A DNA stretch of 25,738 bases from a virus (Duplodnaviria; Heunggongvirae; Uroviricota; Caudoviricetes): IMG/VR virus record IMGVR_UViG_3300024287_000004, positions 64,492 through 90,229 of that record; one strand, 5' to 3'. The number at the start of each line of letters is the position of its first letter. Within the stretch, counting starts at the first letter, position 1. Shown piece after piece: positions 6,146 to 12,456 of the stretch. A program made the position numbers and the translations under genes. The notes beneath the pieces are model-generated. The model made no database searches. It saw only the letters and a list, made by a program, of their open reading frames with translations, and had not been told where the DNA came from.

Positions 6146-6174
6146 TTGACAAACTAACTCTGTTGTGCTACTAT
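6146..6174 (+). promoter_or_regulatory. Sigma70-like promoter
   Basis: TTGACA-17-TACTAT, 20 nt before ATG 6195. Confidence 0.7.
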
Positions 6175-6555: not shown

Positions 6556-6584
6556 TTGACAGCAGCTAGGTAGTGTGGTAATAT
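6556..6584 (+). promoter_or_regulatory. Promoter heading the RNA island
   Basis: TTGACA-17-TAATAT with TG extension and AGCTAG in the spacer. Confidence 0.75.
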
Positions 6585-7112: not shown

Positions 7113-7142
7113 TTGACAATTAGGTAGGAAGTCAGGTAATAT
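7113..7142 (+). promoter_or_regulatory. Sigma70-like promoter
   Basis: TTGACA-18-TAATAT. Confidence 0.6.
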
Positions 7143-7377: not shown

Positions 7378-7407
7378 TTGACAGCTAGAAAGCTAGTGTG
7401 TTAAGAT
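7378..7407 (+). promoter_or_regulatory. Sigma70-like promoter
   Basis: TTGACA-18-TAAGAT with two AGCTAG in the spacer. Confidence 0.6.
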
Positions 7408-7876: not shown

Positions 7877-7986
7877 AGGATGTAGTAGCTGGAAGGCAGG
7901 TAAAGCCTGTCAGGCTAAACTCCGGGCCTAGCGGTATCTAGGATTGCCTTCGCCGGGAAGGGACTACAAAAACCGAGCAGAATAAT

Positions 7987-8078
7987 GGGGGAGTGGCGAA
8001 GCTGGTTGAAACGCGCTAGTTTTAGAAACTAGTACAGTTAATGGCACATCGTGGGTTCGACTCCCACCTCCCCTACCA
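7987..8078 (+). tRNA. tRNA-Leu(UAG)
   Basis: CTAGT-TTTAGAA-ACTAG, long variable region, ACCA. Confidence 0.9.
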
Positions 8079-8084
8079 AGTTAC

Positions 8085-8168
8085 GGCGTGTTGATAGAAG
8101 CAGTTACTTCAACTTACTTTTGAAAACAGTGACCGCCGAAAGGCATAGCTGCTTCGCTTGTTACCGCC
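8085..8168 (+). ncRNA. Y-RNA-like element 1
   Basis: GGCG/CGCC and GAAGCAG/CTGCTTC helices around conserved TGTTGATA/GCTTGTTAC internal loop, TTACTTC motif; upstream of the Ro60-like gene. Confidence 0.78.
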
Positions 8169-8199
8169 AAATATTCGGCCTTAAGGGCCTCAGTGTTAC

Positions 8200-8300
8200 G
8201 CTATGTTGATAGTTACAGTTACTTCTCTTCCATTTGAGGCGAGCGGTTCGATTCCGCCGTATCCGGGCTGGTTGCCTTTTCTGTAGCGTTTGTTACTAGC
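8200..8300 (+). ncRNA. Y-RNA-like element 2 (retains a T-arm)
   Basis: GCTA/TAGC and GTTACAG/CTGTAGC helices, same loop and motif; GCGG-TTCGATT-CCGC. Confidence 0.8.
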
Positions 8301-8308
8301 AAATTTTA

Positions 8309-8446
8309 AGTCGTGTTGATTGATACAGTTACTTCTCCTTGTAAGAGAGTGGTCGTTGGTTCGAATCCAACCCCTCGTGTGCTGGTCACACTTGGGTAGC
8401 TCAGTTGGTAGAGCACTTAAAATACCTGTATCGCCTGTTACCGACT
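8309..8446 (+). ncRNA. YrlA-like Y RNA with circularly permuted tRNA domain
   Basis: GTCG/CGAC and GATACAG/CTGTATC helices; inner order is anticodon-like arm, T-arm, closed acceptor-like stem, D-arm. Confidence 0.88.
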
Positions 8447-8497
8447 ACTTATAAAGCCCGTACGGGCAAAACCTAACCAAGAAAAGGAGAACGAGAA

Positions 8498-9808
8498 ATG
8501 TCATCGCTTAATCGTAAAGCAAAGTCCGTTACCGAGCAAAACTATCACGGGCTTGCAGTAAAAAAGTTGAAAGCAGAAGACCAGCTTACCCGGCTGACTC
8601 TGGCTCACATGCTGTTCGAAGATCAGTTTTATATTGACGGTCAATCCTCAGCAGACGCCCTTAAGGCTGCTGTGAAGGCTGCTAACCCGGCTTACACCGT
8701 GGCTCTGGCTAAGACAGCCCGTACGCAGTATAAGCTGCGTCATGTGCCACTGCTGTTGGTGCGTGAGTTGGTGCGTAACGGTAACATCAAGGCCGCTGAA
8801 ATCGCAGACGTTATCCAACGTCCTGACGAGATGGGCGAACTGTTGGCTATCTACAATGCTGAAAAGCGTCAGCCGCTTGCCCATCAGCTTAAGAAGGGTT
8901 TGGCTCTGGCCTTCGGTAAGTTCAACGAATACCAGCTTGCCAAGCACGATAAGAACTCCGCTGCGTACTCTGTCCGTGATGTGATGTTCATGGTGCGCCC
9001 GAAGCCGGTTAGTGAGACTCAAGTAGCGCTGTTTAAGCGCATCTCAGAGGGCCAGATGGTAACCCCAGATACGTGGGAAACCCAGCTTTCGGCAGGGGCA
9101 GACAAGCGCGAGACGTTTGAGCGCCTGATGGCTGAGAAAAAGCTTGGTGCTATGGCGTTCCTGCGCAATTTGCGCAATATGGATCAGGCCGGGGTATCCT
9201 CGACTGTGATTCGTAACTACGCACAGACGCTGGATGTGAACAATGTCCTGCCGTTCCGCTACATCGCCGCAGCACGCGTTGTGCCTCAGTTTGAGGATAT
9301 GTTGGAAGCAATGATGTTCCGCTCGCTGGAAAGCGTAGAAAAGCTTCCGGGTAAGACCCGTTTGCTGGTTGATGTATCGAGTTCGATGTATACACCGAAG
9401 GTGTCTGCAAAGTCTGATATCACTCGACAAGATGCGTCTCTTGCGTTGGCTATGCTGTGCCGGGAAGTGTGCGAACAGGTTGAGATTTACAGCTTTAGCG
9501 GTAAAGCCCTGCGTATTGCGCCTCGTCGCGGTTTCGCTCTGGCTGATGCTATCAAGACTAGCCAAGGTTGTTCCGGTACTTATCTTGCGCAAAGTATCCG
9601 TGACACAGACGGCGAGTATGACCGTACTATCGTAATCACTGACGAGCAATCGAGTGATATGGTTACGGCCCCTAAAGGACATACTAAGGGGTACATCATC
9701 AACGTTGGCGCGTACAAGAACGGTGTGAATCACACTGCATGGACAACGGTTACTGGCTTCTCGGAAGCTGTGTTGGACTACATCAAAGCTGTTGAGAAGC
9801 TTTCGTAA
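8498..9808 (+). CDS. rsr: TROVE-domain / vWA protein, Ro60 (Rsr)-like RNA-binding protein
   Basis: TROVE-type motifs (QLKKGLALAFGKFNEYQLAK, LGAMAFLRNLRNM) and vWA MIDAS LLVDVSSSM...GT...VITDEQS; strong SD AAAAGGAG. Confidence 0.92.
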   Translation: MSSLNRKAKSVTEQNYHGLAVKKLKAEDQLTRLTLAHMLFEDQFYIDGQSSADALKAAVKAANPAYTVALAKTARTQYKLRHVPLLLVRELVRNGNIKAAEIADVIQRPDEMGELLAIYNAEKRQPLAHQLKKGLALAFGKFNEYQLAKHDKNSAAYSVRDVMFMVRPKPVSETQVALFKRISEGQMVTPDTWETQLSAGADKRETFERLMAEKKLGAMAFLRNLRNMDQAGVSSTVIRNYAQTLDVNNVLPFRYIAAARVVPQFEDMLEAMMFRSLESVEKLPGKTRLLVDVSSSMYTPKVSAKSDITRQDASLALAMLCREVCEQVEIYSFSGKALRIAPRRGFALADAIKTSQGCSGTYLAQSIRDTDGEYDRTIVITDEQSSDMVTAPKGHTKGYIINVGAYKNGVNHTAWTTVTGFSEAVLDYIKAVEKLS

Positions 9809-9816
9809 GAAAGGGC

Positions 9817-9845
9817 TTGACAAGCAGCTAGCTAGGTGGTATAGT
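9817..9845 (+). promoter_or_regulatory. Sigma70-like promoter
   Basis: TTGACA-17-TATAGT with AGCTAGCTAG in the spacer. Confidence 0.8.
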
Positions 9846-9888
9846 ACCGATCTAGCTAGCAAAGAGCTTCTAACGAGGCTCCTTAAAA

Positions 9889-9964
9889 ATAACCTTAGTG
9901 ACAGAAACAGTTACTTCTTTCTTTTGGTGAAAACAAACGTTCTGTTTCGCTTTTTCTAGGTTAT
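9889..9964 (+). ncRNA. Y-RNA-like element 4 (minimal), downstream of the Ro60-like gene
   Basis: ATAACCT/AGGTTAT and GAAACAG/CTGTTTC helices, 8x9 internal loop, TTACTTC motif. Confidence 0.72.
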
Positions 9965-9976
9965 CTTTAAGATTGT

Positions 9977-10059
9977 GGGCGAGTGGCTTATGGAAATTGG
10001 CACACCTGCCGGATTCAAACTCCGGGCTTTTGTGGGTTCGAGTCCCACCTTGCCTACCA
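9977..10059 (+). tRNA. tRNA-Leu(CAA), short variable region and long D region
   Basis: CCGGA-TTCAAAC-TCCGG, GTGGG-TTCGAGT-CCCAC, ACCA. Confidence 0.82.
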
Positions 10060-10069
10060 AACAATCAAT

Positions 10070-10156
10070 TGCGGGGTAGAGAGTAGTTGGTAGCTCGTTA
10101 GGCTCATAACCTAAAGTCGAAAGACCCCGCCGGTTCGATCCCGGCTCCCGCAACCA
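10070..10156 (+). tRNA. tRNA-Met(CAU) (initiator/elongator/Ile2 unresolved) with long variable arm
   Basis: TTAGG-CTCATAA-CCTAA, GTC-GAAA-GAC extra arm, ACCA. Confidence 0.88.
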
Positions 10157-10160
10157 ATTA

Positions 10161-10248
10161 GGAAGTAATGCCGAAATGGGTAGGCAGCAGACTTTTAATC
10201 TGCCGAGGGGAAACCCCAGAGTGGGTTCGATTCCCACTGCTTCCACCA
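10161..10248 (+). tRNA. tRNA-Lys(UUU) with long variable arm
   Basis: GCAGA-CTTTTAA-TCTGC, GGGG-AAA-CCCC extra arm, ACCA. Confidence 0.88.
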
Positions 10249-12426: not shown

Positions 12427-12456
12427 TTGACAAAGATAGCTATCTAGTGCTATACT
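12427..12456 (+). promoter_or_regulatory. Sigma70-like promoter with palindromic spacer
   Basis: TTGACA-18-TATACT; AGATAGCTATCT palindrome in the spacer. Confidence 0.7.

What the first reader, a model, noticed from the sequence alone, without database searches (positions are those of the whole stretch)
8085..9964. Phage Ro60 (TROVE) gene flanked by an array of four covarying Y-RNA-like genes inside the tRNA island
Seen: four elements (8085-8168, 8200-8300, 8309-8446, 9889-9964) share one architecture: terminal helix, 8x9-nt internal loop (TGTTGATW / GYYTGTTAC in three copies), a 7-bp helix and an invariant TTACTTC. The 7-bp helix covaries across copies (GAAGCAG/CTGCTTC, GTTACAG/CTGTAGC, GATACAG/CTGTATC, GAAACAG/CTGTTTC), as does the terminal helix. 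The ends are conserved while the interiors differ. Three copies precede the TROVE-vWA gene and the fourth follows it behind its own promoter. Established: bacterial Rsr binds adjacent Y RNAs (YrlA/YrlB) that tether it to partners such as PNPase, often near the RtcB ligase, and some phages carry Ro60/Y RNA. Inference: a multi-adaptor RNP system, one Ro ring with four interchangeable RNA cargos, for tRNA protection, repair or decoying during infection. No rtcB is in this window.
Basis: partly seen in the sequence, partly recalled or inferred. Interest (0 to 1): 0.9.

Follow-up and report, generated by a model that had tools for sequence, protein, structure and literature searches.

The report
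Phage Ro60 gene with four Y-RNAs
An uncultured 90-kb phage encodes a ring-shaped Ro60-type RNA-binding protein flanked by four small RNA genes that share one conserved docking stem; this is a real but already known kind of protein-RNA pairing, here in an uncatalogued variant whose function is untested.

Summary
Four same-strand elements lie at 8085-8168, 8200-8300, 8309-8446 and 9889-9964. They share a terminal helix, a 7-bp helix and an invariant TTACTTC, and they flank a 436-aa TROVE+vWA gene (8498-9808). The predicted fold of that protein matches solved Ro60 structures, best the Thermus phage phiLo Ro60.

A covariance model built almost entirely from other phages finds exactly these four sites in the 25.7-kb window. 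The same module lies beside TROVE homologues in 33 loci, with a median of 3 and a maximum of 6 per locus. 89 of 90 hits are on the gene's strand, with strong covariation.

That is a degenerate form of the GNCGAA Ro-binding motif.

Element 3 is a YrlA-type tRNA mimic (Rfam 43 bits, below the cut-off of 69). Element 2 keeps only a T-arm, and elements 1 and 4 are short.

The concept is published: Chen 2014 reported Y RNAs beside Ro60 in 22 phages, and Hu 2025 showed that phage Ro60 binds two Y-like RNAs and host PNPase. This scan has also found TTACTTC-handle arrays before on other DNA. What is new is an uncatalogued handle sub-family. Function, transcription and binding are untested.

The parts
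7378..7407 (+). Promoter-like site (TTGACA-18-TAAGAT). Likely start of the transcript carrying tRNA-Ala, Gly, Cys, Leu, then Y1-Y3 and the TROVE gene.
   Evidence: Consensus scan. It belongs to a promoter family with a shared spacer. This is a consensus match only.
7987..8078 (+). tRNA-Leu(TAG) with encoded CCA, ending 6 nt before Y1. Its 3' processing would set the 5' end of Y1.
   Evidence: ARAGORN; Rfam tRNA 57.6 bits. The processing role is inferred.
8085..8168 (+). Y1, a short Y-RNA-like gene. Terminal helix 8085-8088/8165-8168. Handle strand TGTTGATA 8089-8096. 7-bp helix 8097-8103/8149-8155. TTACTTC 8104-8110. 38-nt A-rich insert with a GCC-GAAA-GGC hairpin (GCCGAAAG 8135-8142).
   Evidence: Sequence. 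R1 33.4 bits, E 8e-6, and not in the model's training set. Fold z-score -2.3.
8200..8300 (+). Y2, a Y-RNA-like gene with a T-arm only. Terminal helix 8200-8203/8297-8300. Handle 8204-8211. 7-bp helix 8212-8218/8281-8287 (one G.U). TTACTTC 8219-8225. T-loop-like GCGG-TTCGATT-CCGC at 8243-8257.
   Evidence: Sequence. R1 28.8 bits, E 1e-4. T-loop pattern.
8309..8446 (+). Y3, a YrlA-like tRNA mimic. Terminal helix 8309-8313/8442-8446. Handle 8314-8321. 7-bp helix 8322-8328/8426-8432. TTACTTC 8329-8335. Anticodon-like hairpin 8333-8349 (loop CTTGTAA). T-arm 8355-8371. Closed acceptor-like stem 8372-8396. D-arm about 8397-8416.
   Evidence: Rfam YrlA RF02553 43.1 bits, E 9e-8, below the gathering score of 69. 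R1 26.7 bits, E 3e-4.
8498..9808 (+). 436-aa Ro60-type protein: a TROVE HEAT-repeat ring plus a C-terminal vWA domain with MIDAS residues D292-x-S294-x-S296. An AGGAG ribosome-binding site lies upstream.
   Evidence: Pfam TROVE 1.3e-12 and PHROG 850 1.9e-36. PDB sequence match to phiLo Ro60 9l5y/9kop, E 1e-17, over residues 15-430. AlphaFold2 pLDDT 85.8, and Foldseek TM 0.73 to 9kop, with hits also to 1yvp, 2nvo and 9nen. Invariant residues.
9817..9845 (+). Promoter-like site TTGACA-17-TATAGT (11 of 12, TG-extended) in front of Y4. A perfect 9-bp inverted repeat (9827-9835/9852-9860) brackets the -10 hexamer.
9889..9964 (+). Y4, a short Y-RNA-like gene of the common handle type. Terminal helix 9889-9895/9958-9964. 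Handle TAGTGACA 9896-9903. 7-bp helix 9904-9910/9942-9948. TTACTTC 9911-9917. 24-nt insert with GGTGAAAA 9926-9933. It ends 12 nt before the next tRNA (9977).
   Evidence: R1 53.5 bits. Sequence. Rfam has no match even when the element is searched alone.

Best explanation
This is a phage-encoded Ro60/Y-RNA particle.

Shown:
- The 436-aa protein is a Ro60-type ring (TROVE + vWA).
- The four flanking RNA genes share a conserved, covarying docking stem. It consists of a terminal helix, an invariant bulged U, two covarying base pairs, a pyrimidine, a G.U pair, a small asymmetric loop, a 7-bp helix and then single-stranded UUACUUC.
- This module is found almost only beside TROVE genes, on their strand, in dozens of phages and some bacterial assemblies.

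Inferred:
- The stem is the handle by which each RNA docks on the outer face of the Ro ring. This follows how Y RNAs bind Ro60 through the GNCGAA-type bulged helix.
- The invariant UUACUUC is a second contact with the same protein.
- The variable inner modules give each particle a different partner. These modules are two short A-rich loops, one T-arm, and one full permuted tRNA mimic of YrlA type.
- By analogy with Rsr-Y RNA-PNPase in bacteria and phiLo Ro60-Yrl-PNPase, the most likely partner of the short RNAs is host PNPase or another RNA-decay enzyme. The tRNA mimic would engage tRNA-recognising enzymes.
- The RNAs are probably made from the tRNA-island transcripts by host-type promoters and released by tRNA-processing cuts.
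- The net effect would be to remodel host RNA decay or quality control early in infection.
For: Protein:
- Pfam TROVE and PHROG 850.
- Full-length match to the solved phiLo phage Ro60.
- The AlphaFold2 model matches phage, frog, Deinococcus and human Ro60 structures at E<1e-9.
- The MIDAS residues are invariant in 22 homologues.

RNA:
- Exactly four CM hits in the window.
- 90 hits in 28 sources, 89 of them on the TROVE strand.
- A sequence-only seed gives 113 hits on the TROVE strand against 3 on the other.
- All 12 whole-genome hits in five complete phage genomes (832 kb) fall inside the TROVE loci.
- 87.7% of cells are paired against 54.6% in shuffles. The covariation score is 0.845 against 0.226, and no more than 0.2 when the partners are slid.
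- The two extra handle pairs covary: A-U 31 / G-C 24, and G-C 53 / U-A 4, with 0 of 2000 shuffles as good.
- Y3 hits Rfam YrlA at E 9e-8. At least 13 related loci also have sub-threshold YrlA hits.

Literature:
- YrlA-like RNAs lie within 4 kb of Ro60, on the same strand, in 254 bacteria and 22 phages. They carry a conserved GNCGAAN0-1G motif, and several Y RNAs per species are usual (PMC4201824).
- Phage phiLo Ro60 binds two upstream Y-like RNAs and forms complexes with host PNPase (PMC12135203).
- The crAss001 TROVE gene is transcribed within 10 min of infection (PMC10136315).
Against:
- The window's handles do not carry the literal CGAA motif. They read GUUGAUAG, GUUGAUUG and AGUGACAG.
- Y3 is below Rfam's curated YrlA threshold (43.1 against 69). 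Y1, Y2 and Y4 match no Rfam family.
- The single-sequence folds are only modestly better than shuffles (z -1.3 to -2.3).
- The covariation alignment was fitted to the model's structure, which leans towards that structure.
- The host, and so whether it has PNPase, is unknown. No rtcB is in the genome.
- The closest GenBank protein relative (RsoM2USA, 48% identity) shows no such element.
Confidence: 0.75

Rival explanations
1. The elements are cis-acting parts of the tRNA/TROVE transcripts rather than stable trans-acting RNAs. They would be binding sites through which the TROVE protein regulates its own mRNA, or processing and terminator structures that punctuate the polycistronic tRNA transcript.
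For: - Y1-Y3 fill the space between tRNA-Leu and the TROVE start codon, and Y3 ends 51 nt before the ATG.
- Y4 sits just after the stop codon.
- In relatives, the copy directly downstream of the gene often has an 18-19-bp terminal helix that could act as a 3' stabiliser or terminator (L006, L007, L010, L012).
Against: - In other loci, copies lie up to about 1.9 kb from the gene with tRNAs in between (L014, L009).
- Y4 has its own promoter-like site.
- The inserts carry tRNA-like T and D arms, as in stable YrlA RNAs.
- None is followed by a U-run terminator.
Confidence: 0.1
2. The handle is read by something other than the TROVE protein, such as a host RNA-processing enzyme or a second phage factor. 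On this reading its closeness to TROVE genes reflects shared residence in tRNA islands rather than direct binding.
For: - TROVE genes and these elements both sit in same-strand tRNA islands: 171 same-strand tRNAs against 0 on the opposite strand in 24 loci.
- The literal CGAA Ro-binding motif is degenerate in this window.
Against: - Phages without tRNAs near the gene still carry the elements next to TROVE: Xanthomonas Tenjo, 44 kb, L025 and L023.
- In five whole genomes, hits are confined to the TROVE locus although tRNAs extend further.
- The handle aligns with the stem of Rfam YrlA (GGCGA.../...CUUGUCGCC against GGYGA.../...CUUGUUCC).
Confidence: 0.08
3. The elements are decayed or rearranged tRNA genes and recent local duplications with no function of their own.
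For: - Y2 and Y3 contain tRNA arms.
- ARAGORN and GenBank call some family members tRNAs (L036, L037, CcrColossus).
Against: - The shared part is not tRNA-like, while the interiors differ.
- The helices change by compensatory substitutions within the window and across 89 sequences.
- The module is conserved in phages of Bacteroides, Caulobacter, Xanthomonas and Microcystis.
Confidence: 0.03

Closest known systems
Bacterial and phage Rsr (Ro60) with YrlA/YrlB Y RNAs (Chen et al. 2014, PMC4201824; Rfam RF02553)
   Same: - A TROVE+vWA protein with several small RNA genes within a few hundred bases, on the same strand.
- A stem formed by the 5' and 3' ends that carries a GNCGAA-like motif, with CUUG on the 3' strand.
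- A 7-bp second helix.
- One RNA with permuted T-arm / closed acceptor / D-arm tRNA mimicry (Y3), one with a T-arm only (as reported for M. smegmatis YrlB), and others without tRNA parts.
   Different: - The handle has an invariant bulged U.
- It has a pyrimidine opposite U instead of a C-G pair.
- An invariant UUACUUC follows the 7-bp helix, where the Rfam consensus has CUA.
- Y3 scores 43 bits (cut-off 69), and the other three are invisible to Rfam.
- No rtcBA genes are present.
- The locus lies inside a phage tRNA island.
Thermus phage phiLo Ro60 with Yrl1 and Yrl2 (Hu et al. 2025, PMC12135203; PDB 9kop, 9l5y)
   Same: - The closest solved structure (E 1e-17 by sequence, TM 0.73 by fold).
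- A phage-encoded Ro60 with several Y-like stem-bulge-stem RNAs next to the gene.
- No PNPase gene was seen in the window; the rest of the genome was not searched for one. The phiLo genome has none, so a host enzyme would have to be recruited.
   Different: - About 23-24% protein identity; 436 aa against about 500.
- Four RNAs rather than two, one of them downstream.
- A tRNA-mimic member.
- Binding and PNPase recruitment are shown for phiLo and not tested here.
Deinococcus radiodurans Rsr-Yrn1-PNPase (RYPER) and metazoan Ro60-Y RNA particles
   Same: A ring protein plus an RNA whose end-stem docks on the ring and whose loop recruits or gates other factors, with two to four different Y RNAs per species.
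   Different: Only fold-level similarity to these proteins (14-18% identity). The RNA sequences are unrelated apart from the bulged-helix logic.
Felix O1-type Ro60-like (DUF2828) proteins with ACAGCAA-handle RNAs, and Bas63 gp130, which counters the Ppl defence system (earlier scan notes; preprint 10.1101/2024.10.10.617714)
   Same: A Ro60-shaped phage protein next to a tRNA island, with handle-bearing small RNAs. This phage's terminase is distantly related (about 41% identity) to those of ~90-100-kb Pseudomonas phages.
   Different: A separate sequence family. Felix O1 has no match to this RNA model or to the TROVE profile.

Membership tests
Ro60 / Rsr protein family | TROVE (HEAT-repeat ring) domain | tested here: met
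   Pfam PF05731, 48.1 bits against a cut-off of 23. PHROG 850, 1.9e-36.
Ro60 / Rsr protein family | C-terminal vWA domain with a MIDAS motif closing the ring | tested here: met
   Pfam vWA_Ro60 scores only 22.2 bits, below its cut-off of 27.7. However, D292-x-S294-x-S296 plus T381/D382 are invariant in 22 homologues, and residues 283-436 of the model match vWA folds.
Ro60 / Rsr protein family | Overall fold like solved Ro60 rings | tested here: met
   AlphaFold2 pLDDT 85.8. Foldseek hits to 9kop (TM 0.73), 1yvp, 2nvo and 9nen, all at E<1e-9 and over the full length.
Y RNA (general) | 80-130 nt RNA whose 5' and 3' ends form a long stem, with a large internal loop | tested here: met
   The elements are 76, 84, 101 and 138 nt. 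The end-stem and second helix are supported by covariation. The true RNA ends are not mapped.
Y RNA (general) | Encoded close to Ro60 and on the same strand | tested here: met
   All four lie within 420 nt of the gene, on the same strand. The same holds in 33 loci.
Y RNA (general) | Physically bound by the Ro60 protein | not testable with these tools
   Needs EMSA or RIP. Shown only for the phiLo homologue (PMC12135203).
YrlA (Rfam RF02553) | Score at or above the curated gathering threshold | tested here: not met
   Y3 scores 43.1 bits against 69, though at E 9e-8. Y1, Y2 and Y4 have no hit. Y3 is therefore YrlA-like and not a member by Rfam's rule.
YrlA (Rfam RF02553) | Permuted tRNA-like domain: T-arm, closed acceptor-like stem, D-arm | tested here: met
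   This holds for Y3 only: GTTGG-TTCGAAT-CCAAC, and TAGCTCAGTTGGTAGAGC aligned to the model's T and D arms.
YrlA (Rfam RF02553) | GNCGAAN0-1G motif in the Rsr-binding stem | tested here: inconclusive
   The window has GUUGAUAG, GUUGAUUG and AGUGACAG, so the literal CGAA is absent. Other members of the same family carry exact matches such as UGGCGAAG (L027) and UGGUGAAG. The motif position and the pairing partners are conserved.
rsr-yrlBA-rtcBA RNA repair operon | RtcB ligase (and RtcA) encoded with rsr | tested here: not met
   No RtcB match anywhere in the 90-kb genome, while the controls were positive.
RYPER-type complex (Ro60-Y RNA-PNPase) | The Y RNA loop binds PNPase and tethers it to Ro60 | not testable with these tools
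   The host is unknown, and the complex-prediction tool takes no RNA chains, so an RNA-protein complex was not attempted.

The most novel reading that the evidence does not exclude
The UUACUUC-handle RNAs would be a distinct, mostly phage-borne class of modular Y RNAs. On this reading they let one phage Ro60 ring be loaded with several different adaptors: A-rich loops for RNA-decay enzymes, a T-arm, and a full tRNA mimic for tRNA enzymes or anticodon nucleases. The particle would work early in infection as a counter-defence or tRNA-surveillance device that protects the phage's own large tRNA set.
Probability: 0.15. Interest if true: 0.75.

Novelty: new variant of a known kind. Interest (0 to 1): 0.42.

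Why it matters
What Ro60/Y-RNA particles do in bacteria and phages is still largely open. This locus adds little in concept, because phage Ro60 with Y-like RNAs is published.

It does help define a well-conserved handle: a bulged U, two covarying base pairs, a G.U pair, a 7-bp helix and UUACUUC. That handle marks 1-6 partner RNAs beside TROVE genes in every locus but two of those searched (33 loci), including cultured Xanthomonas, Caulobacter, Brevundimonas and crAss-like phages. Current Rfam models miss these RNAs, and gene callers sometimes label them as tRNAs.

A dedicated model would improve phage annotation. It would also give experimenters clear mutational targets, and cultured systems in which to ask whether phage Ro60 particles retarget host RNA decay or counter tRNA-directed defences.

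Tried and rejected
- **Rfam at gathering thresholds.** Only tRNAs were found. Y4 searched alone gave only noise.
- **Near-identical phage DNA.** None.
- **Collection scan with the 22-nt window-type motif.**
  - It returned 53 stretches.
  - Only 2 carry a TROVE gene.
  - Inspection showed that 50 of the rest are one conserved protein-coding gene read antisense, which is a single chance event, and one is another chance hit.
  - This is not evidence against linkage. A looser collection-wide pattern was not run, because chance hits would swamp it.
- **Felix O1 genome.** No match to the RNA model or to the TROVE profile. The Felix O1/Bas63-type Ro60-like system is therefore a different family, and its Ppl counter-defence phenotype cannot simply be transferred here.
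- **Ralstonia phage RsoM2USA**, the closest GenBank protein at 48% identity. No element was found even with filters off.
- **Bacterial comparison.**
  - Only 2 of 301 sampled genomes of one class had a TROVE gene. One of the two was the centre genome, already known to carry the elements (its locus L096 gave the three expected hits). The one new locus had no hit to either model. That result is uninformative.
  - Whether classical YrlB-type RNAs share UUACUUC therefore remains open. The only evidence is the Rfam YrlA consensus, which lacks it.
- **Wolin-lab review PMC10870794.** Not held.
- **Guessing the Bas63 accession.** The guess returned another BASEL phage, and I dropped this line.
- **Resemblance to human Y RNAs.** From memory, human Y RNAs have UUAUC after the upper stem. 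I could not verify this with the tools, so I do not use it.
Full report
**Context**

The window is bases 64492-90229 of a 90,229-bp IMG/VR virus record rated 100% complete. It holds a terminase, a Mu-type portal, an S49 protease and an E-type capsid gene downstream. A same-strand tRNA island with at least 18 tRNAs lies at about 6.8-12.9 kb. The terminase is only about 41% identical to those of ~90-100-kb Pseudomonas myoviruses. The host is therefore unknown.

**Observation**

Reading 7900-10200 confirms the four elements exactly as described. Each has:
- a terminal helix of 4-7 bp;
- an 8-nt 5' strand (TGTTGATA/T in Y1-Y3, TAGTGACA in Y4);
- a 7-bp helix ending in CAG;
- an invariant TTACTTC;
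- a variable insert of 38, 55, 90 or 24 nt;
- the 3' strand of the 7-bp helix;
- a 9-nt 3' strand (GYYTGTTAC, or GCTTTTTCT in Y4);
- the closing strand.

CAGTTACTTC occurs exactly four times in the window and in the whole genome. The 22-nt 5' pattern gives 4 matches against 0.01 expected. The 7-bp helices differ among the copies by compensatory changes, with one G.U pair in Y2.

**The protein**

ORF 8498-9808 has an AGGAG ribosome-binding site and encodes 436 aa.
- It matches Pfam TROVE at 48.1 bits and weakly the Ro60 vWA model, and PHROG 850 at 1.9e-36.
- Its best match among solved structures is the Thermus phage phiLo Ro60 (9l5y/9kop), E 1e-17, over residues 15-430.
- An AlphaFold2 model built on 22 homologues has pLDDT 85.8.
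- Foldseek places that model with phiLo Ro60 (TM 0.73), frog Ro60, Deinococcus Rsr and human Ro60, all at E<1e-9.
- The MIDAS residues D292, S294 and S296 are invariant.

It is a compact but complete Ro60-type ring protein. Ninety-three GenBank phage records carry homologues.

**Linkage of the RNA module to TROVE genes**

I fetched 24 viral loci with homologues of 39-68% identity, six GenBank phages and six prokaryotic assembly contigs.
- A sequence-only seed (T-N-N-Y-G, 2-4 nt, 7 nt, NTAC[ACT]TC) occurs 113 times on the TROVE strand and 3 times on the other. 87 of the 113 have a perfect 7-bp partner within 260 nt, against 34 expected.
- I built a covariance model from 25 short elements, of which only Y4 comes from this window.
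- That model gives 90 hits at E<=1, 89 of them on the gene's strand.
- With filters off it finds exactly Y4, Y1, Y2 and Y3 in the window, with the next hit at E 1.6.
- In five complete phage genomes (832 kb in all), all 12 hits at E<=0.01 lie inside the TROVE loci.
- At E<=0.01, 33 loci carry 1-6 elements, with a median of 3. Of these, 60 are short, 18 have a T-loop, and 12 have T and D arms.

Four elements in a graded set is therefore typical for this family.

The module is not strictly viral. A 266-kb Halothiobacillus-type scaffold and other assemblies carry it beside their TROVE gene. I did not test whether these are prophages.

**Structure**

On the model-fitted alignment of 89 distinct sequences:
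- 87.7% of cells pair, against 54.6% in shuffles;
- the covariation score is 0.845, against 0.226 in shuffles and no more than 0.2 when the partners are slid;
- all 12 pairs show double changes.

This alignment is fitted to the structure and leans towards it. The MAFFT-only alignment already gave 11 of 12 pairs with compensatory changes.

- The first 5' base is an invariant unpaired U.
- The next two bases pair with the last two of the 3' strand. The counts are A-U 31 / G-C 24, and G-C 53 / U-A 4, with 0 of 2000 shuffles as good.
- Then comes a pyrimidine, and then a nearly invariant G.U pair (50 of 53).

Y1-Y3 differ from the common type, to which Y4 belongs, by a compensated G-C to U-A swap. 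Both types coexist in this genome and in those of L006 and L007.

The 5' strand consensus U-R-G-Y-G-A-A-G includes exact copies of the GNCGAAN0-1G motif that Chen et al. place in the Rsr-binding stem. The stems line up with the Rfam YrlA consensus: GGCGA...CUUGUCGCC against GGYGA...CUUGUUCC. The window's own copies are degenerate (GUUGAU, AGUGAC).

UUACUUC after the 7-bp helix has no counterpart in the Rfam consensus, which has CUA there.

**The individual RNAs**

- **Y3** matches Rfam YrlA at 43.1 bits, E 9e-8, below the cut-off of 69. The match runs through a T-arm, a closed acceptor-like stem and a D-arm. Y3 also has an anticodon-like hairpin with loop CUUGUAA.
- **Y2** keeps only a T-loop-like hairpin.
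- **Y1 and Y4** are short and A-rich. Each carries a second GNYGAA motif in the apical part, a feature enriched in short family members (8 of 28 against 1.0 expected). Most of those members are close relatives.

Sub-threshold YrlA hits occur in at least 13 related loci.

**Expression context**

Six promoter-like sites with a perfect TTGACA lie on the + strand of the island, and five of them share a spacer motif. One lies before tRNA-Ala (7378) and could drive the tRNAs, Y1-Y3 and the TROVE gene. Another (9817-9845) precedes Y4.

Y1 starts 6 nt after tRNA-Leu, and Y4 ends 12 nt before the next tRNA. Ordinary tRNA processing could therefore set those ends; this is inference.

In 24 viral loci there are 171 same-strand tRNAs and none on the opposite strand. 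Residence in tRNA islands is the rule for this gene.

**Comparison with the literature**

- Chen et al. 2014 (PMC4201824) found YrlA-like RNAs within 4 kb of Ro60, on the same strand, in 254 bacteria and 22 phages. They noted several Y RNAs per species, and predicted that more Y RNAs evade homology searches.
- Hu et al. 2025 (PMC12135203) solved the phiLo phage Ro60 structure. They showed that it binds two upstream Y-like RNAs and forms complexes with host PNPase that damp its activity.
- A jumbo-phage survey mentions TROVE proteins with a tRNA-like partner.
- A preprint reports that a Ro60-like protein next to the tRNAs of phage Bas63 counters the Ppl defence. Felix O1 matches neither my RNA model nor the TROVE profile, so that system is a separate family.
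- The crAss001 TROVE gene is among the earliest transcripts.

Earlier notes of this scan report the same TTACTTC-handle arrays on other DNA. This is therefore a repeat finding within the scan.

**Verdict**

The Y-RNA reading is well supported by family-level linkage, covariation, the YrlA-like member and the Ro60 fold.

It is a known kind of system. What appears undescribed in Rfam and in the papers I could search is this handle variant and its short, tRNA-free members.

Function, transcription and binding are inferred only. The proposed role in tRNA protection, repair or decoying has no direct support, and no RtcB is encoded.

Noticed in passing
window 6146-6174, 6556-6584, 7113-7142, 7378-7407, 9817-9845, 12427-12456: The tRNA island has six + strand promoter-like sites with a perfect TTGACA. 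Five of them (all but 6146) share a spacer resembling gcaGCTAGgTAG..gtGgTAnAnT, which suggests one phage promoter family read by host sigma-70 polymerase.
   Followed up: partly
window 9827-9835 / 9852-9860: A perfect 9-bp inverted repeat, GCTAGCTAG/CTAGCTAGC, brackets the -10 hexamer of the promoter in front of Y4. It lies just after the TROVE stop codon. It could be an operator, or a 3' hairpin of the TROVE mRNA.
   Followed up: partly
window 8135-8142 (Y1) and 9926-9933 (Y4): Both short RNAs carry a second GNYGAA-type motif (GCCGAAAG, GGTGAAAA) in their apical part. The motif is enriched in short family members (8 of 28 against 1.0 expected), mainly in close relatives. It could be a second protein contact.
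   Followed up: partly
L032:1673-1740 (CcrColossus 'tRNA-Gln'), L036:1962-2037, L037:2133-2208, L029:2212-2287: The first three of these tRNA calls (GenBank or ARAGORN) overlap members of the Y-RNA-like family. They are probably tRNA-mimic domains miscalled as tRNA genes. The fourth (RsoM2USA, L029) lies 214 nt upstream of the TROVE gene, but no family member was detected there.
   Followed up: partly
L005:4841-5106; L033:1-132: Some TROVE/tRNA islands also hold a tmRNA. L005 has a permuted tmRNA (Rfam 96.7 bits), and a tmRNA is annotated in crAss-like phage cr106_1.
   Followed up: no
L041-L093 (IMG/VR): The 22-nt window-type handle motif also matches the antisense strand of one abundant conserved phage protein gene in 50 contigs. 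This is a chance coincidence amplified by many near-identical contigs, and a trap for motif-only scans.
   Followed up: yes
L006:3877-3974, L007:3874-3964, L010:3870-3965, L012:3874-3971: In close relatives, the element directly after the TROVE stop codon has an 18-19-bp terminal helix, much longer than in Y4 (7 bp). It may double as a transcript 3' end.
   Followed up: no
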